64,000 bases of DNA, taken from Mayamaea pseudoterrestris. Lineage: Eukaryota. Location: the NCBI GenBank assembly GCA_027923505.1, contig BROI01000002.1:558001-622000 (forward strand), in the 5' to 3' direction. Made by a program: the position numbers and the translations under genes. Below are positions 37,534 through 64,000 of the stretch, one piece after another. Under the pieces are notes generated by a model. The model had not been told where the DNA came from. It saw only the letters and a program-made list of their open reading frames with translations, and did no database searches. How positions within the stretch are numbered: the first letter of the stretch is position 1; each line of letters starts with the position of its first letter.

Positions 37534-37551
37534 CTGCTAAAACACCGCAGC

Positions 37552-43732: not shown

Positions 43733-43766
43733 AAATTGTGATAATTTAATATTTCATTTACTTGTG

Positions 43767-45507: not shown

Positions 45508-46285
45508 ATGGGTTCCTTCATGTTTGCCCTTTACTGCATAGGGAGTTTTCTGCTCATGGTGATTTTGGCGTGTGTCATGTGCGGCTGTCCGATACTGGCG
45601 TTCGTACTCGGCGCACCTTTCGAACAAACCGTGAGTGTCAATGAACGACAACGGATGGAACAAAGTAATTTGGCCGAATGGATCATTCGTCTCATGCGAG
45701 ATCCAGATACTTTGGAGGATCGTCGTCGTCGTAGGCAGACGTCAACCACGGATGTTGAGCAACCGCAGTCTCTACAAGAAAAGACTGACGAGTACTCGAG
45801 TAAGACGCTGCAGCTGCTGGAATCTAGACGAATGGTACGTGACAAGACTTATAAGATTCATGTGTTTTGCGTATATGGAATCATCTGGGTTCAGAGGTCT
45901 GACATTGTTGCTTGTATATGCGCAGACACTACGAGAAAAACATTTCGTCCACTATCCCACGACGGAAGCCGTCACAGTCGAGGTGAGCTTCGGTGACGAC
46001 CCAGCGACCAGCAGCAACGACAGTACCATGGTTCGCGTTCCGGCTGCTGGCTCGCATGTAAATTGTGACAATGATCAACCATATCGACTGGCGGAGGCAA
46101 CCTGCGCCATATGCTTGATCGCCTACGAGACTGGCTCGCAGGTTGGTTGGTCATCCAACATCGCGTGTGAGCATGTCTTTCATTACGATTGCTTCAAATT
46201 GTGGTTGGCGCGGCCCGAAGGAAAGTCTTGTCCATGTTGCCGACGGGAGTTTCTTGTCGGCGAAACTGTTGATTTGAAAGGGTGA
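45508..46285 (+). CDS. Transmembrane RING-H2 E3 ligase (ATL-like, copy 1); intron 45835-45925
   Basis: N-terminal TM, spliced in frame to CAICL...CEHVFHYDCFKLWL...CPCCR. Confidence 0.85.
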
Positions 46286-47270
46286 AAGTCAAAAGGAAGA
46301 CCTTTTTGGCCACTGCCAATCTTTGTCACACCAATGGTGACCAAGGCACGTAGCGAAAGTGATGCAGGCAGAAGCAAGCTTGATATTTGGATGGCTGTAC
46401 TCTCTATGAAAAAACATTCAACTGCAGCCAAACGTGCTAGAAAAACTGCTTGGAAACGAGGCCAAAAGACCGCCTGTCGGCAAGTTTAAGAGCATGAGCT
46501 AGGAGTCTGTAGCAAGTCACACTTGAAAGCGCATGTTCCAATAGTCTGTAGCAAGTCGCTACCATGCTTCCAGATGAAACGCGACATTCATGGGGGACTC
46601 GGAACGGCTCATTCATGGCCCGAGAAAGGCGACAGCATCTCGATCTTAATTGTCCCCCAAACAATCGTTTTATTTATTAAAATATGTATGTCACTACAAC
46701 GAAGTGATTAAAGACCTTATCTTTTTTTCGCTAGGGTCTATTAAACACATGAACATATTCGCAGGGTGGGGAGGTGGTATCGGTAGGATCAATGGTACCA
46801 CAAAGCCTGCAAACAAACACCTCCAGTAGACAATATAGAAATTGACACAGGCCCTTCAAAGCAAACCATTTTGATGGGTTGATGCCAACGATTCTCGTCT
46901 ATACGGAAGCGATAACGACGAAATAACGGTCAATCGCTTTCTAGCGATGATCATGACGTCATCTACAATGACGTCAATCCGGTACTGTGCGTCGCAGCGA
47001 AACTAATGAGTACTCTTCGGGTCATAGGTTTTAAAAAAATGCACGAAAAGTTCGATTCGATTCTTGCGAACGACCATGGCAAAAGCATTGGCCTTGCCTT
47101 GCGCACCTTTCTTTGTCTCGCTACGTATTAGGAGTCGCAACGCGACGTGCCAAAGTTGAACTCCCCATTCGTGTGTCTACTTAGTATCAGCAAATCTCGC
47201 TCACCTTGGCACCTCGCTCAGCTACACACATCACCCGCACGACGCCTCGTCTACACGAGTTGTGCCGACA

Positions 47271-48914
47271 ATGATTCATCCAAAGCGGACAAATTTGTCC
47301 ACCGACGACAAGTCATCCGACCAAGAAGAGCCGAACCATCAAATTCAGAATAGATCCGCTTCGCCCAGGATCCAAAGACGTTCCATTTATAGCATGATGG
47401 TCGGACGTCGTCGCGTTCCTGACAAGAAGATGAATTGTTGCACCAAGCCTCGCAAATGGACACTGTCATCCATTCTTGTATTGATGTTGGTTGTGGCATC
47501 AATCAGCACACTCTTAATCAATTCAGTATCAGTATTGATATTTTCGAAACAGATTATTGGCAATGACGCTCATCTACCGCTATCTATGGAAACAGTACGT
47601 CGACGAAAGGTGCATAACATTGCTTACAAAACCACTGCACAAAGCTCGCGAATGGTTTACTTGGAATCGTCGTTGCAATTTTATGAAGCCAAACAAGGTC
47701 GATTCATTGCCACCATGTTTCCTGTGGAACCAGTCGCCAACATGACCAACTCATCCAACTTTTTGAATGTATCCGACGCAATCGATTTTGAACTGAACAT
47801 GACTGCTCCCGACACAATCTTGTCAAGGGACGAAGTGACAGCCGACAACACACAAGACCAATTTAGCTACTTGGATCGCTGCCTGCCAAAAGCTGACTGG
47901 CAGACCGCTAGCTTTATCAATTGCAACGCCTTTCACGAATTAAACATGGCGCACTCGTCACTGGAGAATCGTCGACGCGGCGAGGAGGAGCAACTATCAG
48001 TGCTTGGTGAAGGATGGTTTCGCACCGCCTGGCGACTGTATGCGCGCAACCAAACGACCGTGCTGAAAACGTTGCGGATCGAACGAGATTTTTTGCCAGA
48101 ATACTATGAGTTGCATCGTAGAGATGCAGTTGCCATGGAGCGATTGACGTGGTCGCCCTTTGTCGTTAACGTGTTTGGCTACTGTGGCAACTCGGCAATC
48201 AACGAGATTGCGGATTTTCCCTATCGCGATGTGAACGATTTGGAGCACTTTGATCGAAAGATGAGGTACCGCGAGCGTCATCCGCAGATTCAACGCATCA
48301 AGCTGCAATTGGCGGCAAGCATTGCGCAAGGCGTGGCTGACATTCATTCCATCGATGGGCCAGAAGTGGGTGTCAGCATGGTGCACTACGACTTGAATCC
48401 ACGCAACATTGCAATCTTTGCGCAGGGACGCCCAAAGATCAACGATTTTAATATTGCAGAGTTTCTACGCTATGATCCTGTCAATAATCGCACTTGTGGG
48501 TTTCCCAATCGCATGCGGCAGCCATGGTGGAGAGCCCCGGAGGAAGTCAATCTAACAGCCAACGTGGAGGTGAATGAAAAGACTGACATTTATTCACTTG
48601 GTGCTATTCTGTTTCATATTTTAACTACGCATTCTCCCCGCGGCAAAATGAAAAAGGAAATGATGGAGGATGTTCGGGCTGATGTGGTCCGAGGAGTTGC
48701 TCCAGTCTTGCCGCCGCCCTTTGACAACATGACGGATTCAGTGACAATGGCGTTCAAGAAGGCCATGGACCGATGCTTCGTGGTAGACCACAAGGAGCGC
48801 GCCACGGCCGATGAGATTGTTGACATTTTGTTTCAGGCGCTCATGAAGGTTTTGGGTGACGGTAGCAAGAAGTCAAAACGTCGATCAATTAAGCATACCG
48901 ATCGCACGAGATAG
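47271..48914 (+). CDS. Signal-anchored protein kinase (copy 2)
   Basis: Identical translation to copy 1. Confidence 0.83.
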   Translation: MIHPKRTNLSTDDKSSDQEEPNHQIQNRSASPRIQRRSIYSMMVGRRRVPDKKMNCCTKPRKWTLSSILVLMLVVASISTLLINSVSVLIFSKQIIGNDAHLPLSMETVRRRKVHNIAYKTTAQSSRMVYLESSLQFYEAKQGRFIATMFPVEPVANMTNSSNFLNVSDAIDFELNMTAPDTILSRDEVTADNTQDQFSYLDRCLPKADWQTASFINCNAFHELNMAHSSLENRRRGEEEQLSVLGEGWFRTAWRLYARNQTTVLKTLRIERDFLPEYYELHRRDAVAMERLTWSPFVVNVFGYCGNSAINEIADFPYRDVNDLEHFDRKMRYRERHPQIQRIKLQLAASIAQGVADIHSIDGPEVGVSMVHYDLNPRNIAIFAQGRPKINDFNIAEFLRYDPVNNRTCGFPNRMRQPWWRAPEEVNLTANVEVNEKTDIYSLGAILFHILTTHSPRGKMKKEMMEDVRADVVRGVAPVLPPPFDNMTDSVTMAFKKAMDRCFVVDHKERATADEIVDILFQALMKVLGDGSKKSKRRSIKHTDRTR

Positions 48915-48932
48915 CTGCTAAAACACCGCAGC

Positions 48933-50189
48933 TTACTCTTGAACATGGTGACTGCTGGTCTCACCGAGACGGCAGACTTCGCGCTCAATCTTTTGAACAA
49001 GCTCAGGCTTGGTTTCCCACGGCGACCGACTGTGATTCGACTCGTCCATACACTGCAGTAAAAGTACCGTCAAGCTATGAATAGTCTCCAGACGCAGCCA
49101 GGGATCAATGCTACCGAGATTGACTTGCATTTGCTGCGAGTATGTTCGCCAAATGATGTCTGCCTGTGTTCGATTTGCGCACACCTTTCGACCAAGCATT
49201 AGTAGTTCAAAGCGCGGGTCGGCAATGGCTGCTTCCTCCCAATCGAGAACGGATGCGACGATTGACTTCAAATTATTGCATCCGTTGATTATAATTTTGC
49301 TGAATAGAATGTTTTGTGGCTGGCAATCCATGTGCACCAACGTTGGCGCCAGGGATTCTATCGAGGAACTATCGGTTGTGAGTTCCATTATGCTTCGATC
49401 CAGCTTCATTAATGCGTTTACTAATGTAACATCTGCACATTGACAAGTCTGTAGTTGCTTTAGCGCTTGCTTGTGTAGAAGCAGCATTGTTTGAAATGTA
49501 TATATCGGCGGATATACATCCTCCGCGCCTCTGGGTCGTCTGTGAGGATTGTCGTTTTGAAGCCAGTCAATAGGCCTCTTCCTAAAGTAGCAATGTAATG
49601 GAATCACCACTTGATGCAATACAGTCAGTGCATAGTCTAACGCTTGATCAGCAGGAACCCGTCCCCATCGTGGATGTGTTTCATCAAATCCAAACTCTCT
49701 GCGGATGAACACCATGGATTCGCACCATGCATCGTCAAATGATTCGTCTTGAAACAATAGTGACTCCTTGCCAACATACTCAACCATCGCCCATGGGTGG
49801 CATGCATCGTTATCAAGTGATTCGTGTAGAATGTGAGGAATGTAGGGACGTCGCTGAGTATCCTTGCCATCGTTGAGTGCCAGTCGAGCGAGTCGGTATC
49901 CCATCAGTTCGTCTCGTGCAATTGCCTTCAGGTCGCTGCTGCCGCCGTGCCGATTCAAGTTCCACCATCGCGCAGATCCCTTCCAAATTCGGACAACAAT
50001 TCTATTTTTACCTCTTTGCAATGCTTGCTTCCAGTCGCCATTGTCGCTCGACAATGCAATTGACTGCGGCAGCTGTAGAATGAGCACCGTCTGCTGAGCC
50101 GATTTGGCCGTTTCAACGGAAATGAGTGGCTCTAGAAGCGACAGTTTCTTTTGAAGAAACGTTAGAGCCGATGAAGAGAGCTGGTCCAT
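48933..50189 (-). CDS. APH-like phosphotransferase (copy 2; N-to-H variant)
   Basis: As copy 1 except LNRHGG vs LNRNGG. Confidence 0.78.
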   Translation of the reverse strand: MDQLSSSALTFLQKKLSLLEPLISVETAKSAQQTVLILQLPQSIALSSDNGDWKQALQRGKNRIVVRIWKGSARWWNLNRHGGSSDLKAIARDELMGYRLARLALNDGKDTQRRPYIPHILHESLDNDACHPWAMVEYVGKESLLFQDESFDDAWCESMVFIRREFGFDETHPRWGRVPADQALDYALTVLHQVVIPLHCYFRKRPIDWLQNDNPHRRPRGAEDVYPPIYTFQTMLLLHKQALKQLQTCQCADVTLVNALMKLDRSIMELTTDSSSIESLAPTLVHMDCQPQNILFSKIIINGCNNLKSIVASVLDWEEAAIADPRFELLMLGRKVCANRTQADIIWRTYSQQMQVNLGSIDPWLRLETIHSLTVLLLQCMDESNHSRSPWETKPELVQKIEREVCRLGETSSHHVQE

Positions 50190-50567
50190 CTTTGTATACT
50201 TCTGCAGCCGGCCATGCATCAATGGTGCGCGATGGCAATAATGGACGATGAAAAACATCCGATGTCTCACCGGTGAAGTTGAGAACCAGTACGACGCTTC
50301 CACACGACTGCACGAAAGTCCGTTTCTGCGCATGAGCGATGGATTCCGTAACTAAAATACGAGCGATCTAATGCATCAAAGCTAGACACAAAACATGATC
50401 GCCCTATAGAAACGGTGCAAGTGGGATCGCTCAACGCTCGCCACGATTCCATGCTCCGAAACGTTTCGTTATCGATGGGGCGGCTCACAAATCGCGGTTG
50501 CCTGCCGATCCACTCACACACATCTCCACGCTGCGCGCTCCAAGACACACACACACACTAACATACC

Positions 50568-50999
50568 ATGAAGTTTGACACCAAGACGCTCAAGCCCATG
50601 CCTGTCTCTCCGGAACACTGCTTCGTCCGTCCGAACAAGTTTGTTCCGCCAGTCGATCATGAAACCAAGGACGACGACGGCGACCAGGGCCGCCAGGTTT
50701 ACTACGAGGCAACCATTGTCTACACGCCCGTCTACGCTTCGACTCGCATTCACCAGGATCAAGTCAGCAGTGGTCGCAAGAAGCTTTTGGAGGATTTGGA
50801 CATGGAGAGTCTCAACCAAAAGCTGGAAGGCTTGTTTATTGGCGGCGGCGACGACGACAAGGAGGCAGGCGTCGTCAAGAAAAGGGAATCAAAGAAGGAC
50901 AATGTCAAGACGGAAATGACCAAGAAGGAGGGACTCGGTCGATCCGCCAAGGCGGGACATGACAAGACGGCGATGCGCAGTCGACGCGCACTCAAGTGA
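50568..50999 (+). CDS. Small hypothetical protein (copy 2)
   Basis: Identical translation to copy 1. Confidence 0.58.
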   Translation: MKFDTKTLKPMPVSPEHCFVRPNKFVPPVDHETKDDDGDQGRQVYYEATIVYTPVYASTRIHQDQVSSGRKKLLEDLDMESLNQKLEGLFIGGGDDDKEAGVVKKRESKKDNVKTEMTKKEGLGRSAKAGHDKTAMRSRRALK

Positions 51000-51330
51000 A
51001 TGATGTGAATGGATTCGGAAGGACGAAAATGAGGATTTATAGATGGTAGAACAAAAAGAGGCGGTACGACTCAGTAAGAAATCGACAATTGTAACTACTC
51101 TGTGCGTATAGCTCTAGTTCGTCTGCATGATTAGTAGCAGTTGACTTGGAGATTGTCGGATAGCATTGGAGCTTCCCTCCTCACGACCAACGAGCGAACC
51201 ACGTCTCGCGCGTCATAGCGCGCGCCGCGGCGCGCCACCAAAGAACATGAGCAAGACCGAGCAACGTCGCCCTACTTGCTTTCACAAAGTGCTGTCCTCC
51301 TCCCGTACTCCTTTCATAGAACTCTCCAGC

Positions 51331-54300
51331 ATGAGCTCCTCCTTGTCTTCTGTAGACAAGCATTCATTGTCAGTCAACGATGACGACACGACTGCAAAGG
51401 CATCCGCTCCTTTGGACCAGCCGCTCAGCGCTTCTTCATCGCAGCAACCATCATCGACGGATCATTATCATTTAGATTTCATCGCCAGCAGCCATGCCGT
51501 CAAAAGCTTGTTCTCCTTGGGAGTCATTGACGATCAAAGCATTAGCGTTGCCATTCACAACGTTGATGGAGCGCTCGTATTGGATCACGCGCATGTTGCC
51601 GCGGAAGGAGCCGTCGTTGAAGCAGCAGCAGCTCAAGGAATTAGCGACAGCAGCAGTCACGAAAATACTCGTTTGGGAGCCTTGGAGGCAGACAAGGAGC
51701 GACAAGTATCATTGTCGCAGGATATCATTGCTCTTCCTGCTGGACTGGGCGAGATGAAGGAGACGGAAGCGCTCGCGCTGATTCTTGCGAATCCGCCGCA
51801 GAATTCCGTCTCAAACATCACCTCGCATGACAGTCATAGCGACAACAATTCCAAGCTCGGACTACCCGTACCTGACGATTATATACAACGATTCTTGCCG
51901 CAGCAATCTCCCGAACCACGAGAATATTTGCCTTGGAAATTCAAGGACATTCAGTTGCTCATTGGCTCGAATGCGACCGTCTATCGAGCAAGCAGCAGCA
52001 GCACTACTGCGAATGCAGCTAACGTAGCGGAGCATTCGACAGCCATTACAGTTCGCATTGAACAAACGAGAGACCTGCAGTCTCTCTTGGAGCGATATGA
52101 ACAAGACAAGCTGTTTGCGCTGCAAAACAAGCCTTCATATGCACAAGTGGCCGCAGCAAAGGCAATCAGACAGCGACAACAAATAAACAAGCCGCTCACC
52201 AGCGATTTGCATCAACTGGCCGACGATGAGCAAGGTCTTCAGTCTTGTATTGTGGCAGCTCCATCTTGTCCTGTAGGTGGACTATTGTCGTCTCGAGGCG
52301 GCCTCATTTCATCGCCGCAGCACCACCAAGCGGACGCATCAACAAATCCTGCTTCGTCGCCAACTTCGCCCGTTTCCACCGTTTTGGACATTTATCTTGA
52401 TAATATAATGGCTAATGTACCGCAGCTGGCATTGTGTTTACAGGACAAGGGTTTGATTCAGTCGGTGAAGCTGCTGTCGACGGATGACATTCCATCGTCG
52501 CTGATGCATCCCGATACTCTCGAAACATCGACTCCATTTTCAATTGTTCACAAGGCCGACGGAAAGCAAGTTTTTAGCCCCGAAGTCATGGAGACGAATG
52601 CATCCATGTTGCTTCGATTCCTGCAAGCCAACTGCACCAAGAATAACACGACATATCTGCTACGACGGGAGCATGGCGAAACAAACATTCAACTATACGA
52701 TATATCCACCCTTTCCGGTCGAGGACAAAAGCGCTGGGTGTTTTGGCTCGCCATGATGTCTTATCGCTTTGCCAATCGTTTGCGCCACGTTGCCATGAAC
52801 CACGCCGTCGACGATCCGGCCTTGAAGCGAGCTTGGCGTGCGCGGCAGCGAAGTTTGTTGCGAAACACGTTGGAGTTGCTGGAAAAGTTGACGGATATGG
52901 ATGGTAATCAGCGCGAGAGTTTGGCAGCTGCGGTTCATGAGCATTTGGCGGATAGCATGCTGGGTCTGGAGGATAGTGAAGGGCCTGCTGGTTGCTTTGG
53001 TGAGGGCGACGAGGAAGCGCTTCCCTCGTCAGGCAAATCCGTACCTACATCGCCGACACCTTGTGTATCCATGATACAGCAGCCGTACGCTAACATCTCG
53101 GTTGATGCTTTGGGCAAGGCTCAGGATCATTTGGCGAAGGGCATCAAGGTACTTATGCCGGTTTTGGAAGCTGATGCGAAACTGCATAACGCTAAGACTA
53201 AGAAGGGAGCTGTAGATGCAGAATTTCGCCGGCGTATTGAACCAGTCGCGACTCAGCTCTTTGCCTTGCACTACAAGTTTGTGAATGTGTCGCTTCGTCT
53301 TGCTGAAATTCATTTAAGTAATTACTTTTCGTCGAGCGCCATGCAGGCTTTGCGGACTTCCGCTCGGTGCATGGCAGATTCACTATATCTGGTCCATCTT
53401 TTAGATCGAGACTCGGACAAGAGAGTATATGCCTGGATGCAAAGAATTCAGCTCCAGTATACATGGCTGTGGGAACACAGCGGCCACTTCGCGCGATCAT
53501 TTGCAGCGGACGAACTATGGCGAGAGCGTGGCCATGCTTCTGGCGACGATGTAATCAGTGTACTTCAGGATGTTGACAATGCATTTCGCGAGCATGCATC
53601 ACTAGATTTGAGCGATTCATTTATACGGAAGACTTTTATCGAGCCGGAGAATCCGCTTACAATGCAGTCGAATGGCGTCATTAATCTTAATTCGTTAAAT
53701 GGTATTGTCGACTTCTTTGCACCAATTGGGAAGCGGAAGGTTCAAAAAACACAACGCAACGCCTCCGACAGAGAAGTTGCTGAAAAAGTCTTGGCGAAGC
53801 GGAGGGTTATTGTCCGCGATCAAAGAAAAGTTTTGATCGCTGCATCCCTTGCTTACAGTCGATCAATCAAATCGTTTCGCGATTTACTAGCAGAGGAAGC
53901 GTTTGACGACACACTCCCATCAGAGAATGATACCGCGTTGATAGCTTTGCTCGATCAGAGGCTTGGTGATTCTTGCAATGAGACTGGGAAGATTCTGTTG
54001 AATGAACTTAGACGACTCCTTCAGTCAGCGAGTGCTCGCCCCAACGATGCTGCGCCTACAGGAGCCGTCGAGTACATGCTCTCGTCCGCTCAGTTTTGGT
54101 TTTTCCAAGCCCTTGAAGTATTCGAACGTTGCAGAGATCTACGAAACTTGGCGTTGCTTCGTTGCAACCTCTGTCAGGCGTACAAGCTTCAGGCTAATGC
54201 AGTTTTTTCGTCCACGACCCCGAAACCCCCGGACGGCCACACCCATGCTGATATCTGCTTGCAGGAGGCCATCCATCACCTTGAAGCTGCTCATGAGGCC

Positions 54301-55113
54301 CTGGGCGAGCGTGACCTGGATCCGAAAACATGGAACTTTGTCAGCGAGGAGATGGCTGCAACGTTTCTGGTACTTGGGGTTCGACGGCGCCAATCCTTTA
54401 TTGGATCTGGATCGGTGCCTGTCCTTATGCAGGCTTTACGACTTTCTCCGGGAAAGGAGCAGTCGATTGTTGAGCCAATAGAGAGAGCGCGACAAATCTA
54501 TGAGCAGCTTGGGAACCATCATCAGGCTGCAGCAGCGCACTACCAGCTCGCGTTGTACTTTAGTAAAATATGGACCTGCCAACTTAACGAGGTTAAGACG
54601 CGAGAAAAGCTCACGCTCGCGTTCCAGCATTTTAATGCTGCGTATGGGTACTTTTTAAAAGCAATTCGTGGGAATGAGATTACATTTTGTTTGCTGTGCA
54701 TCGACTCATCGGGATTGTACGCGGCCGTTCCAGGGCTAGAGAGCACTTGCAAGGCACTTCTACGTTGTCTAGACACTGCTGATGCGCTTTCTAAAAACGT
54801 TGTAGAAACGAAATTGAAAGATGTGCAAGGCCGTGCCGACTGGTTTAGGCAAATGGATGTAATTACCACGGCTATTGACGAACGCGTATTCAAAGCGTTG
54901 CGCAGTTTGGTGAAAATTGAAAATGAAGCTGCTGGTGACGGTAACGATCGGTACAAGTCATTGTATCGAATAGCCTTGCAAGCCAAAATGCGCCCCGCTC
55001 CTTCTGAAGTTTACTGCGGGGACGAATTTATTGACAGTGTTGCTAACCGACTCCACGCAATGCACTCCCTGCTCAAGGAAACTGCTACTCATTACAAAGA
55101 AAAATGCGTTTGA
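51331..55113 (+). CDS. EDRF1-like protein (copy 2)
   Basis: Identical translation to copy 1. Confidence 0.73.
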   Translation: MSSSLSSVDKHSLSVNDDDTTAKASAPLDQPLSASSSQQPSSTDHYHLDFIASSHAVKSLFSLGVIDDQSISVAIHNVDGALVLDHAHVAAEGAVVEAAAAQGISDSSSHENTRLGALEADKERQVSLSQDIIALPAGLGEMKETEALALILANPPQNSVSNITSHDSHSDNNSKLGLPVPDDYIQRFLPQQSPEPREYLPWKFKDIQLLIGSNATVYRASSSSTTANAANVAEHSTAITVRIEQTRDLQSLLERYEQDKLFALQNKPSYAQVAAAKAIRQRQQINKPLTSDLHQLADDEQGLQSCIVAAPSCPVGGLLSSRGGLISSPQHHQADASTNPASSPTSPVSTVLDIYLDNIMANVPQLALCLQDKGLIQSVKLLSTDDIPSSLMHPDTLETSTPFSIVHKADGKQVFSPEVMETNASMLLRFLQANCTKNNTTYLLRREHGETNIQLYDISTLSGRGQKRWVFWLAMMSYRFANRLRHVAMNHAVDDPALKRAWRARQRSLLRNTLELLEKLTDMDGNQRESLAAAVHEHLADSMLGLEDSEGPAGCFGEGDEEALPSSGKSVPTSPTPCVSMIQQPYANISVDALGKAQDHLAKGIKVLMPVLEADAKLHNAKTKKGAVDAEFRRRIEPVATQLFALHYKFVNVSLRLAEIHLSNYFSSSAMQALRTSARCMADSLYLVHLLDRDSDKRVYAWMQRIQLQYTWLWEHSGHFARSFAADELWRERGHASGDDVISVLQDVDNAFREHASLDLSDSFIRKTFIEPENPLTMQSNGVINLNSLNGIVDFFAPIGKRKVQKTQRNASDREVAEKVLAKRRVIVRDQRKVLIAASLAYSRSIKSFRDLLAEEAFDDTLPSENDTALIALLDQRLGDSCNETGKILLNELRRLLQSASARPNDAAPTGAVEYMLSSAQFWFFQALEVFERCRDLRNLALLRCNLCQAYKLQANAVFSSTTPKPPDGHTHADICLQEAIHHLEAAHEALGERDLDPKTWNFVSEEMAATFLVLGVRRRQSFIGSGSVPVLMQALRLSPGKEQSIVEPIERARQIYEQLGNHHQAAAAHYQLALYFSKIWTCQLNEVKTREKLTLAFQHFNAAYGYFLKAIRGNEITFCLLCIDSSGLYAAVPGLESTCKALLRCLDTADALSKNVVETKLKDVQGRADWFRQMDVITTAIDERVFKALRSLVKIENEAAGDGNDRYKSLYRIALQAKMRPAPSEVYCGDEFIDSVANRLHAMHSLLKETATHYKEKCV

Positions 55114-55147
55114 AAATTGTGATAATTTAATATTTCATTTACTTGTG

Positions 55148-56660
55148 TCACTCCTCCGGAAACAAAGGTAGCCTGCTCTTTTCGATACCAGATTCGACAA
55201 AACCCTGCTCCTTGAGCATAGTGATAGTATCTCGCAGTCGCATTCCTTCATCATGATTCATTCGTTGTAGCGACACTGTAATATGACTAGCCAATGCCTT
55301 CAAAATTTGAACATCATTGTTCGTAAAACCACCCTGCGTCTTGGAAATTGGATCAACGGCATCAAGATTACCCTTGCGCTTATCCGTCTTGTTGATTGCT
55401 TGAATGACGGCAATCGCTCGACCTTGTGAATCCAATACTGGCACGCACACCATGTTGCGAATCTGCTGGTCATGCGGAAGCGACTCGTTTTGCTTGCCGG
55501 CTTCTGCCGCAAAGTCTGGTTCGTTTCGTACGTCATAAAAGTTAAAGCACTCGCCTGTCAATACCGCGCGCGACGCAATGTTGCGGCCAAGTGGTATAAA
55601 GCTTCCAGACTTGAGCGACTTTTTGGATGTTTCGTCGTACTTGGCGTATAAATACTTTCCATCTGGCGTTGGAATGGGAGTGCCCAGCTTGTCGTCCTTT
55701 TGCACGACGAGAAAGAGCGACGTCCGCTGCGCCCCAATCAAACTACCCGCCTCATTAATAACGTCGTTGAATATTTCATCCAAGTGTGCTTCTCGTTTCC
55801 GTGCTTGAATCTTGTTCGAGTCGATGAATAAAAGTGGAAACATGCCTATTAATGAATGAAAAGCCAGAGACAAGTAAGCTTGACGCTCGCAAAAATAGAA
55901 AACAGACTACACCATAACATTTGTACGTTACCAATCAAACAGCCAATGGTCATTCCAATGGCGCAACCAAACTGGTTGGCAAACCTCACCGACCGCAGCT
56001 GTCGCTGGGCCGTGGTGAGATTGGGCTTTGGAAGGTTCACGTGCTTGGCCAAAAAGTCTTCCACGACGGTTCCAAACATGACTCCGGCAACGTCACTGAC
56101 AATGTTTCCCTGGAGCATCAATAATAGATAAATATTGTTGAGTAAACCTGTTTCATTCCGTCCACATTCTCGTCACTCATTATACGCACCAGCGCTGCCG
56201 CGCACATTGTCGAAATGCCCAGCAGTACACCAAAGGACGTGTCAATGGCATCACCCGCAATGATCAACAAGGCATTATCCATGATTCCAAAGGCAATAAA
56301 GGGAATGCACGTGGCAATGGCAACCGCTCTCAAGTCTTGCTTGGTTGGTTCAGGAATTATTAATTGTGCGTCATTGCCTGATTTGGAGGCTGCTTCGCGT
56401 ACGTGGCGAATGGCACCATGTAGCTGCTGGCGGCCTGACGGTGACAAGTGATTGACTAGTGATTCGAAACCAAGTCCTTGCTCGCTAAGTTCAGTCAATT
56501 GTCGCGATAGATTGGAAGCATTGACTGGTTTATTGCTCGATGAGGCTGCTGCTTCTGCTGCATCGGACAGTGAGCGAGTGCTTGGCTTACAGTGTAACCT
56601 TTGCGTCACTGAAATTATTGGTCGACATATTTTCTGCGACCGTATCATATTAATCTGCAT
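55148..56660 (-). CDS. TMEM65-GAF fusion (copy 2)
   Basis: Identical exon translations to copy 1. Confidence 0.83.
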
Positions 56661-56888
56661 TGGATTCTATATACCAGAGATTAATGGGCCGCAGTAGCAG
56701 CAGGGGCAAAAGATTGGACGGACGAAAGGTATGATGGTGTCATGGTCGATTGAATGGATTGTCACGCATCGTAGCGGTACTCAGTCTTGTCTTGCGTTTG
56801 TTCTTTGGCAGTGTGCGTACGACATTCTCACATATCATCATCATTCCACAAAGTCTTCCGTACGACCTTAACAGAAATCATCAACAGC

Positions 56889-57666
56889 ATGGGTTCCTTC
56901 ATGTTTGCCCTTTACTGCATAGGGAGTTTTCTGCTCATGGTGATTTTGGCGTGTGTCATGTGCGGCTGTCCGATACTGGCGTTCGTACTCGGCGCACCTT
57001 TCGAACAAACCGTGAGTGTCAATGAACGACAACGGATGGAACAAAGTAATTTGGCCGAATGGATCATTCGTCTCATGCGAGATCCAGATACTTTGGAGGA
57101 TCGTCGTCGTCGTAGGCAGACGTCAACCACGGATGTTGAGCAACCGCAGTCTCTACAAGAAAAGACTGACGAGTACTCGAGTAAGACGCTGCAGCTGCTG
57201 GAATCTAGACGAATGGTACGTGACAAGACTTATAAGATTCATGTGTTTTGCGTATATGGAATCATCTGGGTTCAGAGGTCTGACATTGTTGCTTGTATAT
57301 GCGCAGACACTACGAGAAAAACATTTCGTCCACTATCCCACGACGGAAGCCGTCACAGTCGAGGTGAGCTTCGGTGACGACCCAGCGACCAGCAGCAACG
57401 ACAGTACCATGGTTCGCGTTCCGGCTGCTGGCTCGCATGTAAATTGTGACAATGATCAACCATATCGACTGGCGGAGGCAACCTGCGCCATATGCTTGAT
57501 CGCCTACGAGACTGGCTCGCAGGTTGGTTGGTCATCCAACATCGCGTGTGAGCATGTCTTTCATTACGATTGCTTCAAATTGTGGTTGGCGCGGCCCGAA
57601 GGAAAGTCTTGTCCATGTTGCCGACGGGAGTTTCTTGTCGGCGAAACTGTTGATTTGAAAGGGTGA
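56889..57666 (+). CDS. Transmembrane RING-H2 E3 ligase (copy 2)
   Basis: Identical exon translations to copy 1. Confidence 0.83.
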
Positions 57667-58297
57667 AAGTCAAAAGGAAGACCTTTTTGGCCACTGCCAA
57701 TCTTTGTCACACCAATGGTGACCAAGGCACGTAGCGAAAGTGATGCAGGCAGAAGCAAGCTTGATATTTGGATGGCTGTACTCTCTATGAAAAAACATTC
57801 AACTGCAGCCAAACGTGCTAGAAAAACTGCTTGGAAACGAGGCCAAAAGACCGCCTGTCGGCAAGTTTAAGAGCATGAGCTAGGAGTCTGTAGCAAGTCA
57901 CACTTGAAAGCGCATGTTCCAATAGTCTGTAGCAAGTCGCTACCATGCTTCCAGATGAAACGCGACATTCATGGGGGACTCGGAACGGCTCATTCATGGC
58001 CCGAGAAAGGCGACAGCATCTCGATCTTAATTGTCCCCCAAACAATCGTTTTATTTATTAAAATATGTATGTCACTACAACGAAGTGATTAAAGACCTTA
58101 TCTTTTTTTCGCTAGGGTCTATTAAACACATGAACATATTCGCAGGGTGGGGAGGTGGTATCGGTAGGATCAATGGTACCACAAAGCCTGCAAACAAACA
58201 CCTCCAGTAGACAATATAGAAATTGACACAGGCCCTTCAAAGCAAACCATTTTGATGGGTTGATGCCAACGATTCTCGTCTATACGGAACAAGACTA

Positions 58298-58537
58298 TGC
58301 CATAGACATGCGCATAGTCTCAAATGGTGCAGAAAGGACTGCCTGGAGGCCCACACCATGGAATCTATACAGTGCCAAGACCCCAAGTTGTGGATGCATA
58401 CCACCAGGATGCCCCATGCCCTAGCCACTCACAACGACCCAATGAGTGTCAGGCAAAACTATCCAGAGTGTGCCATTGGCATGTGCATAGTCTCCAATGG
58501 TGCAAAAAGGACTGCCTGGAGGTCTACACCCTGGAAT
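58298..58537. repeat. Two imperfect ~67-bp direct repeats, 173 bp apart, at the satellite border
   Basis: TGCCAT..CATG.GCATAGTCTC.AATGGTGCA.AAAGGACTGCCTGGAGG at 58298 and 58471. Confidence 0.8.
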
Positions 58538-60500
58538 ATTCTACACAACAGGTCATGGAAAGACTTCAAAAAGGATCTACAGACCCCATAATACAACCAA
58601 TATGGATTTGAATGTTGATTGGGACTCATAGACTTGTCCATTTGGGCGTAGAGCCATCACCATGCCCTGAGACTCCGCACATTCAACCAATGGTTGAATG
58701 TGCCAGCCCTGCTCCATTTTTGGCTGCAGGGATCATCAGCATTGCCCGCTGAGCCCTCCAATTTCTTTCAACTCATGTTTGTTGTCAATGATGGGCCATA
58801 AGTTGGTGAGTTGCACCTCAGCATCCATCACCATGAGACTGAACAGATCCAACAACTTGTTGGATCTGCTAGCGGCGCACCTCAAGTGGCAATTGAACCT
58901 TCCAAAATGGCCTGCAGACACCATAATACAACCAATATGGACTTGAACAATGATTGGGACTCATAGACTTGTCCATTTGGGCGTAGAGCCATCACCATGC
59001 CCTGAGACTCCGCACATTCAACCAATGGTTGAATGTGCCAGCCCTGCTCCCTTTTTGGCTGCAAAGATCATCAGCATTGCCCACTGAGCCCTCCAATTTC
59101 TTCCGAATCATGTTTGTTGTCAATGCCCCATAAGTTGGTGAATTGCACCTCAGCATCCATCACCATGTATGTCACAGTGAGACTGAGCAGATCCAACAAC
59201 TTGTTGGATCTGCTAGTGGTGCATTGAGACTTCCAAAATGGACTGCAGACCCCATAATACATTCAATATGGACTTGAACAATGATTGGGACTCATAGACT
59301 TGTCCATTTGGGCGTAGAGCCATCACCATGCCCTGAGACTCCGCACATTCAACCAATGGTTGAATGTGCCAGCCCTGCTCCCTTTTTGGCTGCAGGGATT
59401 ATCCGAATTGCCCACTGAGCCCTCCAATTTCTTTTAAATCATGTTTGTTGTCAATGCTGGGCCATAAGTTGGTGAGTTGCACCTCAGAATCCATCACCAT
59501 GTATGCCACAGTGAGACTGAGCAGATCCAACAACTTGTTGGATCTGCTAGCGGTGCACTTCAAGTGGCAATTGAGACTTCCAAAATGGTTTGCAGACCCC
59601 ATAATACATCCAATATGGACTTGAACAATGATTGAGACTCATAGGCTTGTCCATTCGGGCGTAGAGCCATCACCATGCCCTGAGACTCCGCACATTCAAC
59701 CAATGGTTGAATGTGCCAGCCCTGCTCCCTTTTTGGCTGCAGGGATCATCCGGATTGCCCGCTGAGCCCTCCAATTTCTTTCAAGTCATGTTTGATGTCA
59801 ATGCTGGGCCATAAGTTGGTGAGTTGCACCTCAGCATCCATCACCATGTCTGTCACAGTGAGACTGAGCAGATCCAACAACTTGTTGGATTTGCTAGCGG
59901 TGCACCTCAAGTGGCAATTGAACCTTCCAAAATGGACTGAAGACCCCATAATACATTTAATATGGACTTGAACAATGATTGGGACTCATAGACTTGTCCA
60001 TTTGGGTGTAGAGCCATCACCATGCCCTGAGACTCCGCACATTCAACCAATGGTTGAATGTGCCAGCCCTGCTCCCTTTTTGGCTGCAGGGATTATCCGA
60101 ATTGCCCACTGAGCCCTCCAATTTCTTTCAAATCATGTTTGTTGTCAATGCTGGGCCATAAGTTGGTGAGTTGCACCTCAGCATCCATCACCATGTATGC
60201 CACAGTGAGACTGAGCAGATCCAACAACTTGTTGGATCTGCTAGCGGTGCACTTCAAGTGGCAATTGAGACTTCCAAAATGGTCTGCAGACCCCATAATA
60301 CATCCAATATGGACTTGAACAATGATTGAGACTCATAGGCTTGTCCATTTGGGCGTAGAGCCATCACCATGCCCTGAGACTCTGCACATTCAACCAATGG
60401 TTGAATGTGCCAGCCCTGCTCCCTTTTTGGCTGCAAAGATCATCAGCATTGCCCGCTGAGCCCTCCAATTTCTTTCAAATCATGTTTGTTGTCAATGCTG

Positions 60501-61564
60501 GAGCGTCCGGTAAAATGACTTTTCGCCGAAAATGTCACACTGGCACTCATCATTCCGTTGACGAGACCCAAAAGCCGTTGCTGGCATGGCTAGCGTGGCG
60601 CGCCGGCACACCTAGCTGTTTTGCGAAGGCTAAATTCTTCTATCAGCACTTCGCTATAAGAACTTTGCTTAATCAGCACATTGCTATCAGAACTTTACTT
60701 TATCAGCAGAATGCTATCAGAACGTTTCTTATACAGAATTTCTGGGACTGTACGGGATAAAGTACAAATCGTTAGTACCGGTATTATCAATAGTCACAAA
60801 TAGACATAGTTACGCACAGCCATCCATGAAGATGAACCGTTGGCCTTCGACGACGCTCCTTGCCGCTTGCCGACCACCATAATCAGAAGCTGAAGAAGAC
60901 CGCTGCTCTTTATATAACAATTAAAGTAGACTAATTAATATATGACGATTTGATCTATCCAGTTGGTTTGCTGGCGCGGGCACTGTAGATCCCGCGACAG
61001 CACGATTTGTGTGGAGCATCAGTTCTGCTGCTCGCAGCAAACACGTTGTCCTTTTCGTAGGGAATCATCATTACAACACCAATTACAAAGCTCAAGCAAG
61101 CTTCTTGTCATGGCAAATACAAACATCCATCTTTAGCAGCAATCAGTATGGCTAGCCAGTGCTTGTCGATGGTGCCTGGTCGTCGTCGTCGTCGTCGTCG
61201 TCGTCGAAACTCGGTTGGTGGCAGTTGTACAATCATCGTCAAGGTATAAGTAAAGAAACAGCTGAATTGTCGCTAGCGACGAATCATATTCAACAAAAAT
61301 GTCAAATGTGCATAAAGTTCTTTTTCAAGGTTTTACTTAGACAAAAACCGTTATCAGCGAACTGCTATCAGCACATTGCTGACTAAGTAAATCGCTATCA
61401 GCAAAGTGCTGACTAAGTATTGCAAGCTGCTACAGGCGATCCATCGGCGCGCAAGCATAGCCTGGCTATGCACGCGCGCATTGTCGCCAATCAAATCTCA
61501 TCCACGACTAACAGCTGACCCGGTGCGACATTTTTCGTCAAAAAAGACATTTTACCGGAAGCTC
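60501..61564. mobile_element. Non-autonomous TIR element (MITE), probably PIF/Harbinger superfamily
   Basis: ~40-bp imperfect TIRs (GAGCGTCCGGTAAAATGACTTTT... / ...AAAAAGACATTTTACCGGAAGCTC), CTG duplicated at 60498-60500 and 61565-61567; the host monomer is longer by exactly 1064+3 bp; no transposase ORF. Confidence 0.9.
61179..61206. repeat. (TCG)n microsatellite inside the MITE
   Basis: About nine TCG/GTC units. Confidence 0.9.
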
Positions 61565-64000
61565 CTGGGCCATAAGTTGGTGAGTTGCACCTCAGCATCC
61601 ATCACCATGTATGTCACAGTGAGACTGAGCAGATCCAACAACTTGTTGGATCTGCTAGTGGTGCACCTTAAGTGGCAATTGAGACTTCCAAAATGGACTG
61701 CAGACCCCATAATACATTCAATATGGACTTGAACAATGATTGAGACTCATAGACTAGTCCATTTGGGCGTGGAGCCATCACCATGCCCTGAGACTCCGCA
61801 CATTCAACCAATGGTTGAATGTGCCAGCCCTGCTCCCATTTTGGCTGCAGAAATCATCAGCATTGCCTGCTGAGCCCTCTAATTTCTTTCAAACCATGTT
61901 TGTTGTCAATGCTGGGCCATAAGTTGGTGAGTTGCACCTCAGCATCCATCACCATGTCTGTCACAGTGAGACTGAGCAGATCCAACAACTTGTTGAATCT
62001 GCTAGCGGTGCACCTTAAGTGGCAATTGAACCTTCCAAAATGGCCTGCAGACCTCATAATACAACCAATATGGATTTGAACAATGATTGGGACTCAAAGA
62101 CTTGTCCATTTGGGCGTAGAGCCATCACCATGCCCTGAGACTCCGCACATTCAACCAATGGTTGAATGTGCCAGCCCTGCTCCCTTTTTGGCTGCAAAGA
62201 TCATCAGCATTGCCCGCTGAGCCCTCCAATTTCTTTCAAATCATGTTTGTTGTCAATGCTGGGCCATAAGTTGGTGAGTTGCACCTCAGCATCCATCACC
62301 ATGTCTGTCACAGTGAGACTGAGCAGATCCAACAACTTGTTGGATCTGCTAGCGTTGGATCTGCTAGCGGTGCACCTCAAGTGCCAATTGAGACTTCCAA
62401 AATGATCTACAGACCCCATAATACATTCAGTAAGGACTTGAACAATGATTGGGACTCATAGACTTGTCCATTCGGGCGTAGATCCATCACCATGCCCTGA
62501 GACTCCACACATTCAACCAATGGTTGAATGTGCCAGCCCTGCTCCCTTTTTGGCTGCAAAGATCATCAGCATTGCCTGCTGAGCCCTCCAATTTCTTTCA
62601 AATCATGTTTGTTGTCAATGCCCCATAAGTTGGTGAGTTGCACCTCAGCATCCATCACCATGTGTGTCACAGTGAGACTGAGCAGATCCAACAACTTGTT
62701 GGATCTGCTAGCGGTGCACCTCAAGTGGCAATTGAGACTTCCAAAATGGTCTGAAGACCCCATAATACAACCAGTAAGGACTTGAACAATGATTGAGACT
62801 CATAGACTTGTCCATTTGGGCATAGAGCCATCACCATGCCCTGAGACTCCACACATTCAACCAATGGTTGAATGTGCCAGCCCTGCTCCCTTTTTGGCTG
62901 CAGGGATTATCCGAATTGCCCGCTGAGCCCTCCAATTTCTTTCAAATCATGTTTGTTGTCAATGCTGGGCCATAAGTTGGTGAGTTGCACCTCAGCATCC
63001 ATCACCATGTAGCGACGTCACCCGTGGCAATTGAACCTTCAGCAAAAAAAGTCATTGGCAGGCATCACCTGCCCCGCAACTGAGCCCAACAACATGTTGG
63101 ACAAGTGTACTCAAGTGGCATTGAGATTCCAAGATGCGCCGCTAGACCCCAACAGCCAAACATGGACTTACCAGTTGAAGTGACTCAAGACTTGTCCATT
63201 TGGCGTAGGCCATCACTATGCCCTGAGACTCGCACATTCAACAACTGGTTGAATGTGCCAGCCTGCTCCTTTTTGGCTGCAGGGATAATCAGCATTGCCC
63301 GCTGAGCCCTCCAATTTCTTTCAAATCATGTTTGTTGTCAATGACTAGGCAATAAGTTGGTCCATTGCACCTCAGCATCCGTCACCATGAGACTGAACAG
63401 ATCCTACAACTTGTTGGATCTGCTAGCGGCGCACCTCAAGTGGCAATTGAACCTTCCAAAATGGCCTGCAGACCCCATAATACAACCAATATTTGGATTT
63501 GAATGTTGATTGGGACTCATAGACTTGTCCATTTGGGCGTAGAGCCATCACCATGCCCTGAGACTCCGCACACTCAACCAATGGTTGAATGTGCCAGCCC
63601 TGCTCCCTTTTTGGCTGCAAAGATCATCAGCATTGCCCGCTGAGCCCTCCAATTTCTTTCAAATCATGTTTGTTGTCAATGCTGGGCCATAAGTTGGTGA
63701 GTTGCACCTCAGCATCCATCAACATGTCTGTCACAGTGAGACTGAGCAGATCCAACAACTTGTTGGATCTGCTAGCGGTGCACCTCAAGTGGCAATTGAG
63801 ACTTCTAAAATGGTCTGCAGACCCCATAATACATCCAATATGGACTTGAACAATTATTGAGACTCATAGGCTTGTCCATTTGGGCGTAGAGCCATCACCA
63901 TGCCCTGAGACTCCACACATTCAACCAATGGTTGAATGTGCCAGCCCTGCTCCCATTTTGGCTGCAAAGATCATCAGCATTGCCCGCTGAGCCCTCCAAT

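What the first reader, a model, noticed from the sequence alone, without database searches (positions are those of the whole stretch)
58677..63941. Satellite carries two palindromes per monomer that differ by three fully compensated base pairs
Seen: palindrome A is GCACATTCAACCA-A-TGGTTGAATGTGC (13-bp arms, e.g. 58677-58703). Palindrome B is AGCAGATCCAACAA-C-TTGTTGGATCTGCT (14-bp arms, e.g. 59520-59548). They are homologous, both preceded by CCATCACCATG...TGAGACT and followed by AGC. Aligned, GCA-c-AT-t-CAAC-c-A-a-T-g-GTTG-a-AT-g-TGC vs GCA-g-AT-c-CAAC-a-A-c-T-t-GTTG-g-AT-c-TGC: all three left-arm differences are mirrored in the right arm. Inference: symmetry rather than sequence is being kept, either by selection (cruciform/hairpin, site for a dimeric protein with consensus GCAnATnCAACnAnTnGTTGnATnTGC, structured satellite RNA) or by intra-strand template switching. 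A regular array of dyads every ~170-180 bp is a candidate centromeric or chromatin-organising element, or the relic of a hairpin-dependent replicating element.
Basis: partly seen in the sequence, partly recalled or inferred. Interest (0 to 1): 0.85.

Follow-up and report, generated by a model that had tools for sequence, protein, structure and literature searches.

The report
Diatom satellite with two compensated palindromes
A highly repeated, non-coding 347-base satellite at the edge of a gene-rich region of a pennate diatom carries two related perfect palindromes per unit that differ only by mirrored base changes, a real and non-random pattern whose cause (copying of one arm from the other, or selection for symmetry) cannot yet be decided.

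Summary
A 347-bp tandem array (58561-60500 and 61565-64000, split by a 1,064-bp TIR transposon) holds two homologous ~55-60-bp boxes per unit: an invariant leader followed by a perfect palindrome. Type A has 13-bp arms (8 exact copies of 13). Type B has 14-bp arms (7 exact of 11). A and B differ at arm pairs 4, 7 and 12, all mirrored, and at the centre base. If the arms mutated independently this has a probability of about 5e-5.

- **Host:** a pennate diatom.
- **Array:** non-coding, matches no Rfam family, strongly CpG-depleted (0.22 against 1.09 in the genes), and very abundant in public DNA runs.
- **Homology:** only the box is shared between the two half-units; the tails are unrelated.
- **Against strict upkeep of symmetry:** all 7 distinct arm variants in the window are uncompensated, an uncompensated pair-12 variant makes up about half of the read depth at that place, and one old diverged copy has lost the palindrome.

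Leading explanation (0.4): one arm is copied from the other by template switching, and the result spreads through the array by concerted evolution. Selection for a cruciform or for dimer-binding sites remains a live alternative (about 0.4 together). A centromere role is untested. This is a new member of a known kind, of moderate interest.

The parts
58561..60500 (+). 347-bp satellite array, part 1 (5.7 units). It starts inside a B-half tail.
   Evidence: TRF period 347, 91% matches. Half-unit alignment.
61565..64000 (+). 347-bp satellite array, part 2. It runs off the end of the window, so its full length is unknown.
   Evidence: TRF period 347; sequence.
62122..62174 (+). Representative A box: 11-nt leader, 3 nt, a 7-nt motif, 2 nt, the 27-nt palindrome A (62145-62171), then the first 3 nt (CAG) of the CAGC that follows it.
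   Evidence: (I2: 13-nt arms, 100% complementary, 1 nt between). DNA hairpin -12.1 kcal/mol, z = -5.8.
62652..62712 (+). Representative B box: the same 11-nt leader, a B-specific 10-nt insert, the same 7-nt motif, 1 nt (G), the 29-nt palindrome B (62681-62709), then AGC.
   Evidence: An identical B palindrome at 62322-62350 has 14-nt arms, 100% complementary (I1), and folds at -13.6 kcal/mol, z = -8.5.
63232..63258 (+). A-type palindrome variant. Left-arm position 12 and the centre carry the B-type bases, but the right arm is unchanged. It is an uncompensated, intermediate-looking form.
   Evidence: The hairpin loses only 1.0 kcal/mol, because the loop grows from 3 to 5 nt.
62999..63209 (+). 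Old, strongly diverged B half-unit. Only a 6-bp inner stem of the palindrome remains (63085-63113).
   Evidence: Sequence. Fold -4.5 kcal/mol, z = -0.9.
60501..61564 (.). 1,064-bp non-autonomous TIR transposon inserted into an A half-unit. It has 24-nt terminal inverted repeats (92%), subterminal 30-bp repeats, and a 3-bp target duplication (CTG at 60498-60500 and 61565-61567).
   Evidence: I2, D1, D2. The satellite sequence resumes in register. Its CpG o/e is 1.20, unlike the satellite.
58280..58560 (+). Neighbouring, unrelated repeat (about 1.6 copies, period about 173 bp). It is even more abundant in public DNA runs than the 347-bp satellite.
   Evidence: 73 bp at 86% identity, offset 173. 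table 2: summed word depth of 1.2-2.3 million in four of its five bins (36 thousand in the fifth), against about 125 in the unique flank in X1. CpG o/e 0.17.

Best explanation
This is a high-copy, non-coding satellite of a pennate diatom. Its CpG depletion suggests it is cytosine-methylated. The 347-bp unit carries, at half-unit spacing of about 170-178 bp, two copies of a conserved ~55-60-bp box ending in a perfect palindrome.

The mirrored A/B differences are most economically explained by copying of one arm from the other. During replication or repair the nascent strand folds back on the near-palindrome and uses the other arm as template. This is intramolecular template switching, also called quasi-palindrome correction. 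One such event turns any number of one-sided arm mutations into fully mirrored ones, or erases them. The corrected monomer then spreads by unequal exchange and conversion (concerted evolution).

On this reading the symmetry is mainly a mutational product and needs no selection on each copy.

Shown: the array, the box homology, perfect symmetry of both types, three mirrored differences, non-randomness under independent substitution, uncompensated minor variants, CpG depletion, and high abundance in reads.

Inferred: template switching, concerted evolution, methylation, and the order of intermediates at pair 12.
For: 1. Independent substitution in the two arms is rejected (P = 4.6e-5), so a symmetry-restoring process exists.
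2. Template switching is a documented process. It makes perfect stems and multi-base compensatory changes in a single event (PMC8794818, passages read) and homogenises inverted-repeat arms (PMC8604942 and PMC3820800, abstracts only).
3. The arms changed faster than the adjacent leader: 6 of 26 arm positions against 0 of 18 leader positions (Fisher p = 0.067). This is expected if palindromes are hot spots in which a single-arm mutation can be doubled.
4. Single copies are not kept symmetric:
   - all 7 distinct arm variants among 24 copies are uncompensated;
   - 58688 C>A takes 57% (X1) and 45% (X2) of the depth at its place, and no partner change is among the rows shown;
   - the oldest copy has lost the palindrome.
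5. Intermediate-looking forms exist at pairs 12 and 7. Of 8 palindrome variants (7 in the arms, 1 at the centre), 5 fall on the 7 of 27 positions that distinguish A from B (P = 0.03). Of those 5, 4 go to the other type's base (P = 0.045). These numbers are small.
6. Pair 12 contributes only about 1 kcal/mol to the hairpin. Its compensation is therefore poorly explained by selection on stability and easily explained by copying through the centre.
7. Other replication slips occur at the palindrome, such as the 15-bp duplication of the right arm at 62339-62368.
Against: 1. The two half-units share only the box. The leader is 18/18 identical, while the tails are no more alike than shuffled sequence (59 of 1000 shuffles reach the observed score). 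If the unit is an old dimer, as the near-exact half-unit spacing suggests, the box has been conserved while the rest diverged. Template switching does not explain that; it points to constraint on the box.
2. Palindrome columns tend to vary less than the rest: 8 of 56 against 72 of 291 (p = 0.12), and 4 of 52 against 54 of 237 (p = 0.048) when three diverged copies are dropped.
3. Short palindromes are not generally enriched elsewhere in the unit (arm of 3 or more: 15 against 9.7 ± 2.9; arm of 4 or more not different). No perfect inverted repeat with arms of 10 or more occurs in 46 kb of flanking genome. There is thus no sign of a genome-wide palindrome-making bias.
4. No direct footprint of a template switch could be looked for, such as a dated single event or a loop inversion. 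That needs a phylogeny of monomers and an outgroup.
5. Only two sequence types exist, so all statistics rest on very few independent events.
Confidence: 0.4

Rival explanations
1. Selection for base pairing. The palindromes must extrude as DNA hairpins or cruciforms, or fold in a satellite transcript. The structures would serve a chromatin function such as centromere specification, heterochromatin nucleation or replication. Stems therefore covary while the single-stranded or recognised leader stays constant.
For: - Conserved leader (18/18) plus a covarying stem is the classic signature of a structured element.
- The box is the only part shared by the two half-units.
- Both palindromes fold as stable 12-13-bp stems with 3-nt loops (z = -5.8 and -8.5). 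Mismatches at pair 7 cost 3.6-5.2 kcal/mol.
- Palindromes tend to vary less than the rest of the unit.
- Spacing is nucleosome-scale, 169/178 bp.
- Dyad symmetries are enriched in centromeric satellites of many eukaryotes and have been proposed to specify centromeres (PMC5889037, passages read).
- The abundant pair-12 mismatch barely affects stability (1.0 kcal/mol), so it is tolerated under this model.
Against: - Every polymorphic arm variant in the window is uncompensated, including the costly pair-7 ones.
- The oldest copy lost the palindrome.
- The depletion of variation is not significant (p = 0.12).
- Compensation at pair 12 is worth only about 1 kcal/mol.
- The one characterised diatom centromere type (Phaeodactylum) is low-GC and lacks repeats (10.1101/096016, passages read). 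This array is 47-48% GC.
- No structural, CENH3 or transcript data exist.
Confidence: 0.25
2. Two classes of symmetric double-stranded binding sites. A and B would be recognised by two paralogous homodimeric DNA-binding proteins, or by one homodimer with two accepted half-site variants. A change of half-site specificity then appears in both arms.
For: - Symmetry runs right through to the centre, where a hairpin cannot pair (3-nt loop).
- Invariant blocks (a 4-bp core 3-6 bp from the centre on each side, so the half-site centres lie about 9 bp apart) alternate with the three variable pairs. This layout fits a dimer contacting successive major grooves, though that is my inference.
- A and B alternate strictly along the array. 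This resembles, from recall only, the alternating box variants of alpha-satellite A/B monomers.
Against: - It needs two co-evolving proteins or an unusual tolerance.
- Half-sites of 13-14 bp are long for a transcription-factor dimer.
- About half of the read depth at one A place carries an asymmetric pair 12.
- No candidate protein was identified and no binding data exist.
- The single-protein version with N at the variable positions does not predict compensation at all.
Confidence: 0.15
3. Relic of a mobile or hairpin-dependent element. The box would derive from a transposon or recombinase site, such as abutted terminal inverted repeats, a recombination core site or a rolling-circle hairpin, that was captured and amplified into a satellite. 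A and B would descend from two subfamilies whose ends were each kept matched by their enzyme.
For: - Half-sites of 13-14 bp are in the range used by recombinases and transposases (recalled, not tested).
- Satellites often arise from transposon parts (recalled).
- The box is a discrete ~55-60-bp module in otherwise unrelated tails.
Against: - There is no copy of the box or of a single palindrome outside the array in 58 kb of flank.
- No target-site duplications or terminal repeats surround the box.
- The two boxes are in direct, not inverted, orientation.
- No match in viral contigs. The only metagenome hit is a chance match in coding-looking DNA with 0 of 3 variable pairs complementary.
- The transposon that does sit in the array has unrelated ends.
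Confidence: 0.1
4. Chance. Two arbitrary monomer variants that happen to be palindromic were amplified by concerted evolution, with no symmetry-restoring process.
For: All exact copies are recent duplicates, so the effective sample is two sequences.
Against: P = 4.6e-5 for three mirrored complementary differences. No perfect inverted repeat with arms of 10 or more occurs in 46 kb of background, and shuffles give 0.25. Zero matches to the consensus are expected by chance.
Confidence: 0.02

Closest known systems
[quoted passage not shown]
   Same: A tandem satellite with a regularly spaced dyad symmetry in every nucleosome-sized half-unit, predicted to form stable hairpins or cruciforms.
   Different: The dyads surveyed there are under 10 bp. 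Here the arms are 13-14 bp, perfect, and come in two compensated versions. Centromere location and CENH3 association are unknown here. The only diatom centromeres described (Phaeodactylum) are low-GC and repeat-free.
Template-switch (quasi-palindrome) mutation that creates and maintains perfect stems (Monttinen and Loytynoja 2022, PMC8794818, passages read; PMC5453318, PMC3820800 and PMC8604942, abstracts only)
   Same: Perfect arms, and several compensated differences that a single event can produce. Intermediates with one-sided changes coexist with the perfect forms.
   Different: Those cases were inferred on phylogenies of RNA genes, yeast genes or human variants. Here no phylogeny or outgroup is available, so no event has been dated or shown to be single. 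The element is a satellite box, not a gene.
Alpha-satellite A/B dimers with alternating protein-binding boxes (CENP-B box in B-type monomers, pJ-alpha site in A-type).
   Same: A dimeric higher-order unit in which two related monomer types alternate and differ mainly in a short box at the same relative place.
   Different: Alpha-satellite monomers are alike over their whole length, and their boxes are not palindromes. Here only the box is alike, and it is palindromic.
Satellites with a short conserved box inside diverging repeats, such as the 19-bp box of Meloidogyne holocentromere repeats (PMC8097292, search listing and abstract only), and the macro-dyad satellites of Tribolium madens (PMC13081366, listing and abstract only)
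   Same: A conserved short motif or a dyad architecture within abundant satellite DNA.
   Different: Those features are a non-palindromic box and kilobase-to-megabase-scale inverted arrangements. Neither is a pair of compensated 27/29-bp palindromes.

Membership tests
Satellite DNA (tandem, non-coding, high copy) | Head-to-tail tandem units with high mutual identity | tested here: met
   TRF period 347, 5.7 and 6.9 copies, 91% and 82% matches. Alignment of 12 A and 11 B half-units.
Satellite DNA (tandem, non-coding, high copy) | Non-coding | tested here: met
   20-29 stops per frame in 1.9 kb, longest open stretch 86 codons. The unit length of 347 is not a multiple of 3. No Rfam family reaches threshold.
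Satellite DNA (tandem, non-coding, high copy) | High genomic copy number | tested here: inconclusive
   In X1 the summed word depth of Logan contigs over the array is 3.6e3-5.5e5, against about 125 on the unique flank, and 10,279 contigs were laid. The tool states that this depth is not a copy number. No genome is held.
Centromeric dyad-symmetry satellite | Dyad symmetry predicted to form non-B DNA in each repeat | tested here: met
Centromeric dyad-symmetry satellite | Association with CENH3, and one array per chromosome | not testable with these tools
   No genome and no ChIP data. The array runs off the window.
Phaeodactylum-type diatom centromere | Low-GC region (100-bp windows at or below 32% GC) lacking repeats (10.1101/096016) | tested here: not met
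   The array has 47-48% GC and is repetitive.
Inverted repeat maintained by template switching | Perfect arms and multi-position mirrored differences between relatives | tested here: met
Inverted repeat maintained by template switching | Several mirrored changes placed on one branch of a phylogeny, or associated loop inversion or stem extension | not testable with these tools
   Only two sequence types and no outgroup. Metagenome and viral scans found no relatives. The centre bases (A and C) are not complements, so there is no simple loop inversion.
Self-cleaving-ribozyme or other structured-RNA satellite | Match to a known RNA family | tested here: not met
   Nothing at gathering score. With E up to 10 there were only matches of 12-19 bits against thresholds of 40-73.
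Transposon-derived box (TIR junction, recombination site or MITE) | Dispersed non-tandem copies with element ends or target duplications | tested here: not met
   No copy outside the array within this window. The genome-wide test was not possible.

The most novel reading that the evidence does not exclude
The ~55-60-bp box is a selected cis-element of satellite-based centromeres or heterochromatin in a pennate diatom. The invariant leader would be read by sequence, and the palindrome by shape (cruciform) or by a pair of co-evolving homodimers. The A/B covariation would then be a natural compensatory-mutation proof that DNA dyad symmetry itself is under selection in a satellite. This would occur in a lineage whose only characterised centromeres are repeat-free.
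Probability: 0.12. Interest if true: 0.85.

Novelty: new member of a known kind. Interest (0 to 1): 0.42.

Why it matters
Whether dyad symmetry in satellite DNA is selected or is a by-product of mutation is an open question in centromere and heterochromatin biology. Most evidence so far is enrichment statistics on short dyads.

Here one repeat unit carries two paralogous long palindromes, with three mirrored differences and surviving one-sided intermediates. That gives an unusually clean system for separating templated mutation from selection, once all monomers of the genome and of related species can be compared.

It would also be one of the first satellites described in diatoms. Phaeodactylum centromeres, by contrast, lack repeats.

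If the mutational reading holds, the case is a warning. Covariation in a repeated DNA palindrome is not by itself evidence of function.

Tried and rejected
- **Whole genome:** none is held for this window. Copy census, chromosomal position and dispersed copies could not be examined.
- **Earlier findings of the scan:** nothing by place or by sequence. Nothing for the five words together. The hits for 'satellite palindrome' concern phage satellites and giant viruses and do not bear on this.
- **Metagenome contigs, leader plus left-arm pattern (right arm left free):** 0 hits.
- **Metagenome contigs, degenerate full palindrome:** 1 hit (L001), in coding-looking DNA, with 0 of 3 variable pairs complementary. 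This is a chance match.
- **Viral contigs, same pattern:** 0 hits.
- **Public runs:** 8 holders in 2 studies, and no RNA holder listed.
- **Two of the laid runs, X5 and X7 (other organism labels):** they hold satellite-like contigs at low depth. X5 also holds an exact 151-bp piece of the unique flank. Carry-over of the same organism cannot be excluded, and I draw no cross-species conclusion.
- **Read laying limits:** it showed only 41 of 182 variant rows, so a per-position variant spectrum of arms against flanks could not be made.
- **Rfam:** nothing at gathering score, only sub-threshold noise at E up to 10.
- **Homology of the two tails:** not significant, forward or reverse-complement.
- **Homology of the satellite to the neighbouring 173-bp repeat or to the inserted transposon:** none.
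- **General excess of short palindromes in the unit:** not significant.
- **CpG decay as the source of the mirrored differences:** rejected by inspection. None of the three pairs is a CG to TG/CA difference, and neither palindrome contains CpG.
- **Literature:**
  - No paper in the library holds either palindrome core.
  - Searches on diatom satellites and centromeres and on compensated dyads in satellites found no description of this or a like case in diatoms.
  - The library lacks most subscription journals, so this is not proof of absence.
- I repeated the comparison with natural copies taken by coordinates.

Full report
**What is there**

The last 5.4 kb of the window is a tandem array with a 347-bp period, at 58561-60501 and 61565-64000. 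It runs off the window end. A 1,064-bp element (60501-61564) interrupts it. That element has 24-nt terminal inverted repeats (92%), subterminal 30-bp repeats and a 3-bp target duplication, so it is a non-autonomous TIR transposon.

Each unit consists of an A half (171 bp) and a B half (176 bp). Each half begins with a box:
- an 11-nt leader, identical in A and B;
- a short variable piece (3 nt in A, 10 nt in B, absent in two B' copies);
- a 7-nt motif, identical in A and B;
- two bases;
- a perfect palindrome;
- AGC.

Palindrome A has 13-bp arms around a central A. It is exact in 8 of 13 copies. Palindrome B has 14-bp arms around a central C. It is exact in 7 of 11 copies, not counting one strongly diverged copy. 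Centre-to-centre spacing is typically 178 bp from A to B and 169 bp from B to A.

**Is it more than chance?**

The degenerate consensus matches 24 times, with 0 expected, and every match lies inside the array. In 46 kb of flanking genome no perfect inverted repeat with arms of 10 or more and a loop of 6 or less occurs.

A and B differ at arm pairs 4 (C:G against G:C), 7 (T:A against C:G) and 12 (C:G against A:T), and at the centre. All 13 shared pairs are Watson-Crick in both types. If the arms mutated independently, six arm differences forming three mirrored complementary pairs has P = 4.6e-5.

The caveat is that the identical copies are recent duplicates. The real sample is two sequence types plus a few variants.

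**Host and context**

No genome is held for the window. The window is gene-dense with long intron-poor ORFs. The NAD(P) transhydrogenase at 9567-12590 finds its best named relatives in pennate diatoms: Cylindrotheca closterium at 75% identity, then Nitzschia, Pseudo-nitzschia, and Phaeodactylum at 72%. No closer match was found. The host is therefore a pennate diatom.

The array is non-coding: 20-29 stops per frame, with a longest open stretch of 86 codons. It matches no Rfam family.

CpG observed/expected is 0.21-0.23 in the array, with an excess of TpG and CpA (1.71). The genes show 1.09 and the inserted transposon 1.20. This is the footprint of long-term cytosine methylation. Methylation itself is inferred, not measured.

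In Logan contigs of public DNA runs the unique flank 58000-58341 is present without a difference in X1 (depth about 125) and X2 (about 8). Summed word depth over the array reaches 1e5-5e5 in X1, and 10,279 contigs were laid. The tool warns that this is not a copy number. It is a hint of very high abundance.

The neighbouring short repeat at 58280-58560 (period about 173 bp, unrelated in sequence) reaches 1.2-2.3 million in four of its five depth bins.

**Anatomy that matters for the interpretation**

1. The two half-units are homologous only in the box. The box alignment beats 1000 of 1000 shuffles, while the best tail alignment is reached by 59 of 1000 and is out of register. Because the boxes sit almost exactly half a unit apart, an old dimer whose tails have diverged beyond recognition is the simplest history. 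That implies the box evolved much more slowly than the rest.
2. Within the box, the leader is 18/18 identical, whereas 6 of 26 arm positions differ (p = 0.067). The palindrome is the fast-changing but always symmetric part.
3. Among copies in the window, 8 of 56 palindrome columns vary against 72 of 291 elsewhere (p = 0.12). After I dropped the three most diverged copies (A63210, B58825, B63379), the counts are 4 of 52 against 54 of 237 (p = 0.048). This is a trend to lower variation, not a firm result.
4. All 7 distinct arm variants are one-sided:
   - outermost G>A in three A copies (a CpG site);
   - outermost G>A in the two B' copies;
   - T7>C in A (63568);
   - C12>A in A (63232), together with a centre change A>C;
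   - A9>T in B (63397);
   - right-arm G>A (61976) and C>T (59868) in B.
5. Of 8 palindrome variants (the 7 arm variants plus the centre change), 5 fall on the 7 positions that distinguish A from B (P = 0.03). Of those 5, 4 go to the other type's base (P = 0.045). They look like surviving intermediates or like patchy A/B conversion. The numbers are small.
6. In the public runs, C>A at 58688 (left arm, pair 12) holds 57% (X1), 45% (X2), 35% (X5) and 82% (X7) of the depth at that place. Neither the partner change at 58692 nor a centre change is among the 41 rows shown of 182, although rows supported by as few as 2 contigs are shown. So a one-sided pair-12 form is probably a major genome-wide variant. 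I cannot fully exclude that the partner row was cut.
7. Together with copy 63232, this gives a plausible one-step-at-a-time path at pair 12. It would run from the B-like state (A:T, centre C), through right-arm T>G, then centre C>A, to left-arm A>C. Pairing would be broken first and restored later. This path is inferred.
8. Folding as single-stranded DNA:
   - A gives -12.1 kcal/mol and B -13.6 kcal/mol, as 12-13-bp stems with 3-nt loops;
   - the pair-12 mismatch costs only 1.0 kcal/mol;
   - the pair-7 mismatches cost 3.6-5.2 kcal/mol;
   - the old diverged B copy (63085-63113) keeps only a 6-bp stem and is no better than shuffles.
9. Short palindromes are not generally enriched in the rest of the unit.

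**How it most likely works**

I put template switching first, at 0.4. A nascent strand that folds back on a near-palindrome copies one arm from the other. One event makes every mismatch symmetric, and the corrected monomer spreads by concerted evolution.

The process is documented. It explains perfect stems and multi-base compensation in one step (PMC8794818, passages read; PMC5453318, PMC3820800 and PMC8604942, abstracts only). It fits four features here:
- the arms change faster than the leader;
- one-sided variants are common;
- old copies lose the palindrome;
- pair 12 is compensated although it adds little stability.

It does not explain why only the box is shared between the half-units, and it does not explain the trend to lower variation in the palindromes. 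These are the main arguments for the rivals:
- selection for an extrudable hairpin or cruciform (0.25);
- two classes of symmetric sites for homodimeric proteins (0.15).

A transposon or recombinase-site origin (0.1) finds no support in the window. There are no dispersed copies, no element ends, and the boxes lie in direct orientation. It could not be tested genome-wide. Pure chance is about 0.02. Templated mutation and selection are not exclusive: the former may supply the variants that the latter keeps.

**Comparison with what is known**

Satellites with dyad symmetries predicted to form non-B DNA are known from many eukaryotes and have been proposed to specify centromeres (PMC5889037). Those dyads are under 10 bp. 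Here they are 13-14 bp, perfect, and come in two compensated versions.

The alternation of two box variants recalls alpha-satellite A/B dimers. This comparison is recalled and was not checked.

The only diatom centromeres described (Phaeodactylum) are low-GC and lack repeats (10.1101/096016). This array is 47-48% GC and so is not of that type. Whether it is centromeric at all is untested.

No paper in the searched library holds the palindrome cores, and none describes a comparable diatom satellite. The library omits most subscription journals.

**Verdict**

This is a new member of a known kind, satellite DNA with a dyad-symmetric box, and it is of moderate interest. Its value is as a clean test case for whether dyad symmetry in satellites is selected or made by mutation. 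That becomes decidable with a genome-wide monomer census, related species, CENH3 mapping and binding or structure assays.

Noticed in passing
window 35528-46908 and 46909-58289: An exact tandem duplication of 11,381 bp with a single mismatch (at 38568). It carries a kinase, a phosphotransferase-family gene and an EDRF1-like gene. The second copy ends at 58289, just inside the first satellite-like repeat (which starts at 58280). It is either a very recent duplication at the satellite border or an assembly artefact.
   Followed up: partly
window 58280-58560: A second repeat, unrelated in sequence (about 1.6 copies, period about 173 bp, CpG o/e 0.17). In four of its five depth bins its summed word depth in public DNA runs (1.2-2.3 million in X1) is several times that of the 347-bp satellite. 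It is probably the major satellite of this genome.
   Followed up: partly
window 60501-61564: A 1,064-bp non-autonomous TIR transposon inserted in the satellite. It has 24-nt TIRs, subterminal 30-bp repeats at both ends, a (GTC)9 microsatellite at 61179-61206, and a CTG target duplication. Its CpG o/e of 1.20 contrasts with 0.22 in the surrounding satellite, which suggests a recent insertion.
   Followed up: partly
window 62339-62368: A 15-bp tandem duplication of the right arm of palindrome B plus AGC. It gives one left arm two possible partners, and looks like a replication slip at the palindrome.
   Followed up: no
window 58825-58988 and 63379-63544: Two B' half-units lack the 12-bp leader insert and carry G>A in the outer arm. 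They share tail variants, so the array has an older layer at its edge and again near 63.0-63.5 kb, with younger homogenised units between. The B-specific insert itself consists of two overlapping 9-bp palindromes.
   Followed up: partly
window 58561-64000: CpG observed/expected is 0.21-0.23 with TpG+CpA at 1.71 in the satellite, against 1.09 and 1.20 in the adjacent genes. This is a signature of long-standing cytosine methylation confined to the repeats.
   Followed up: partly
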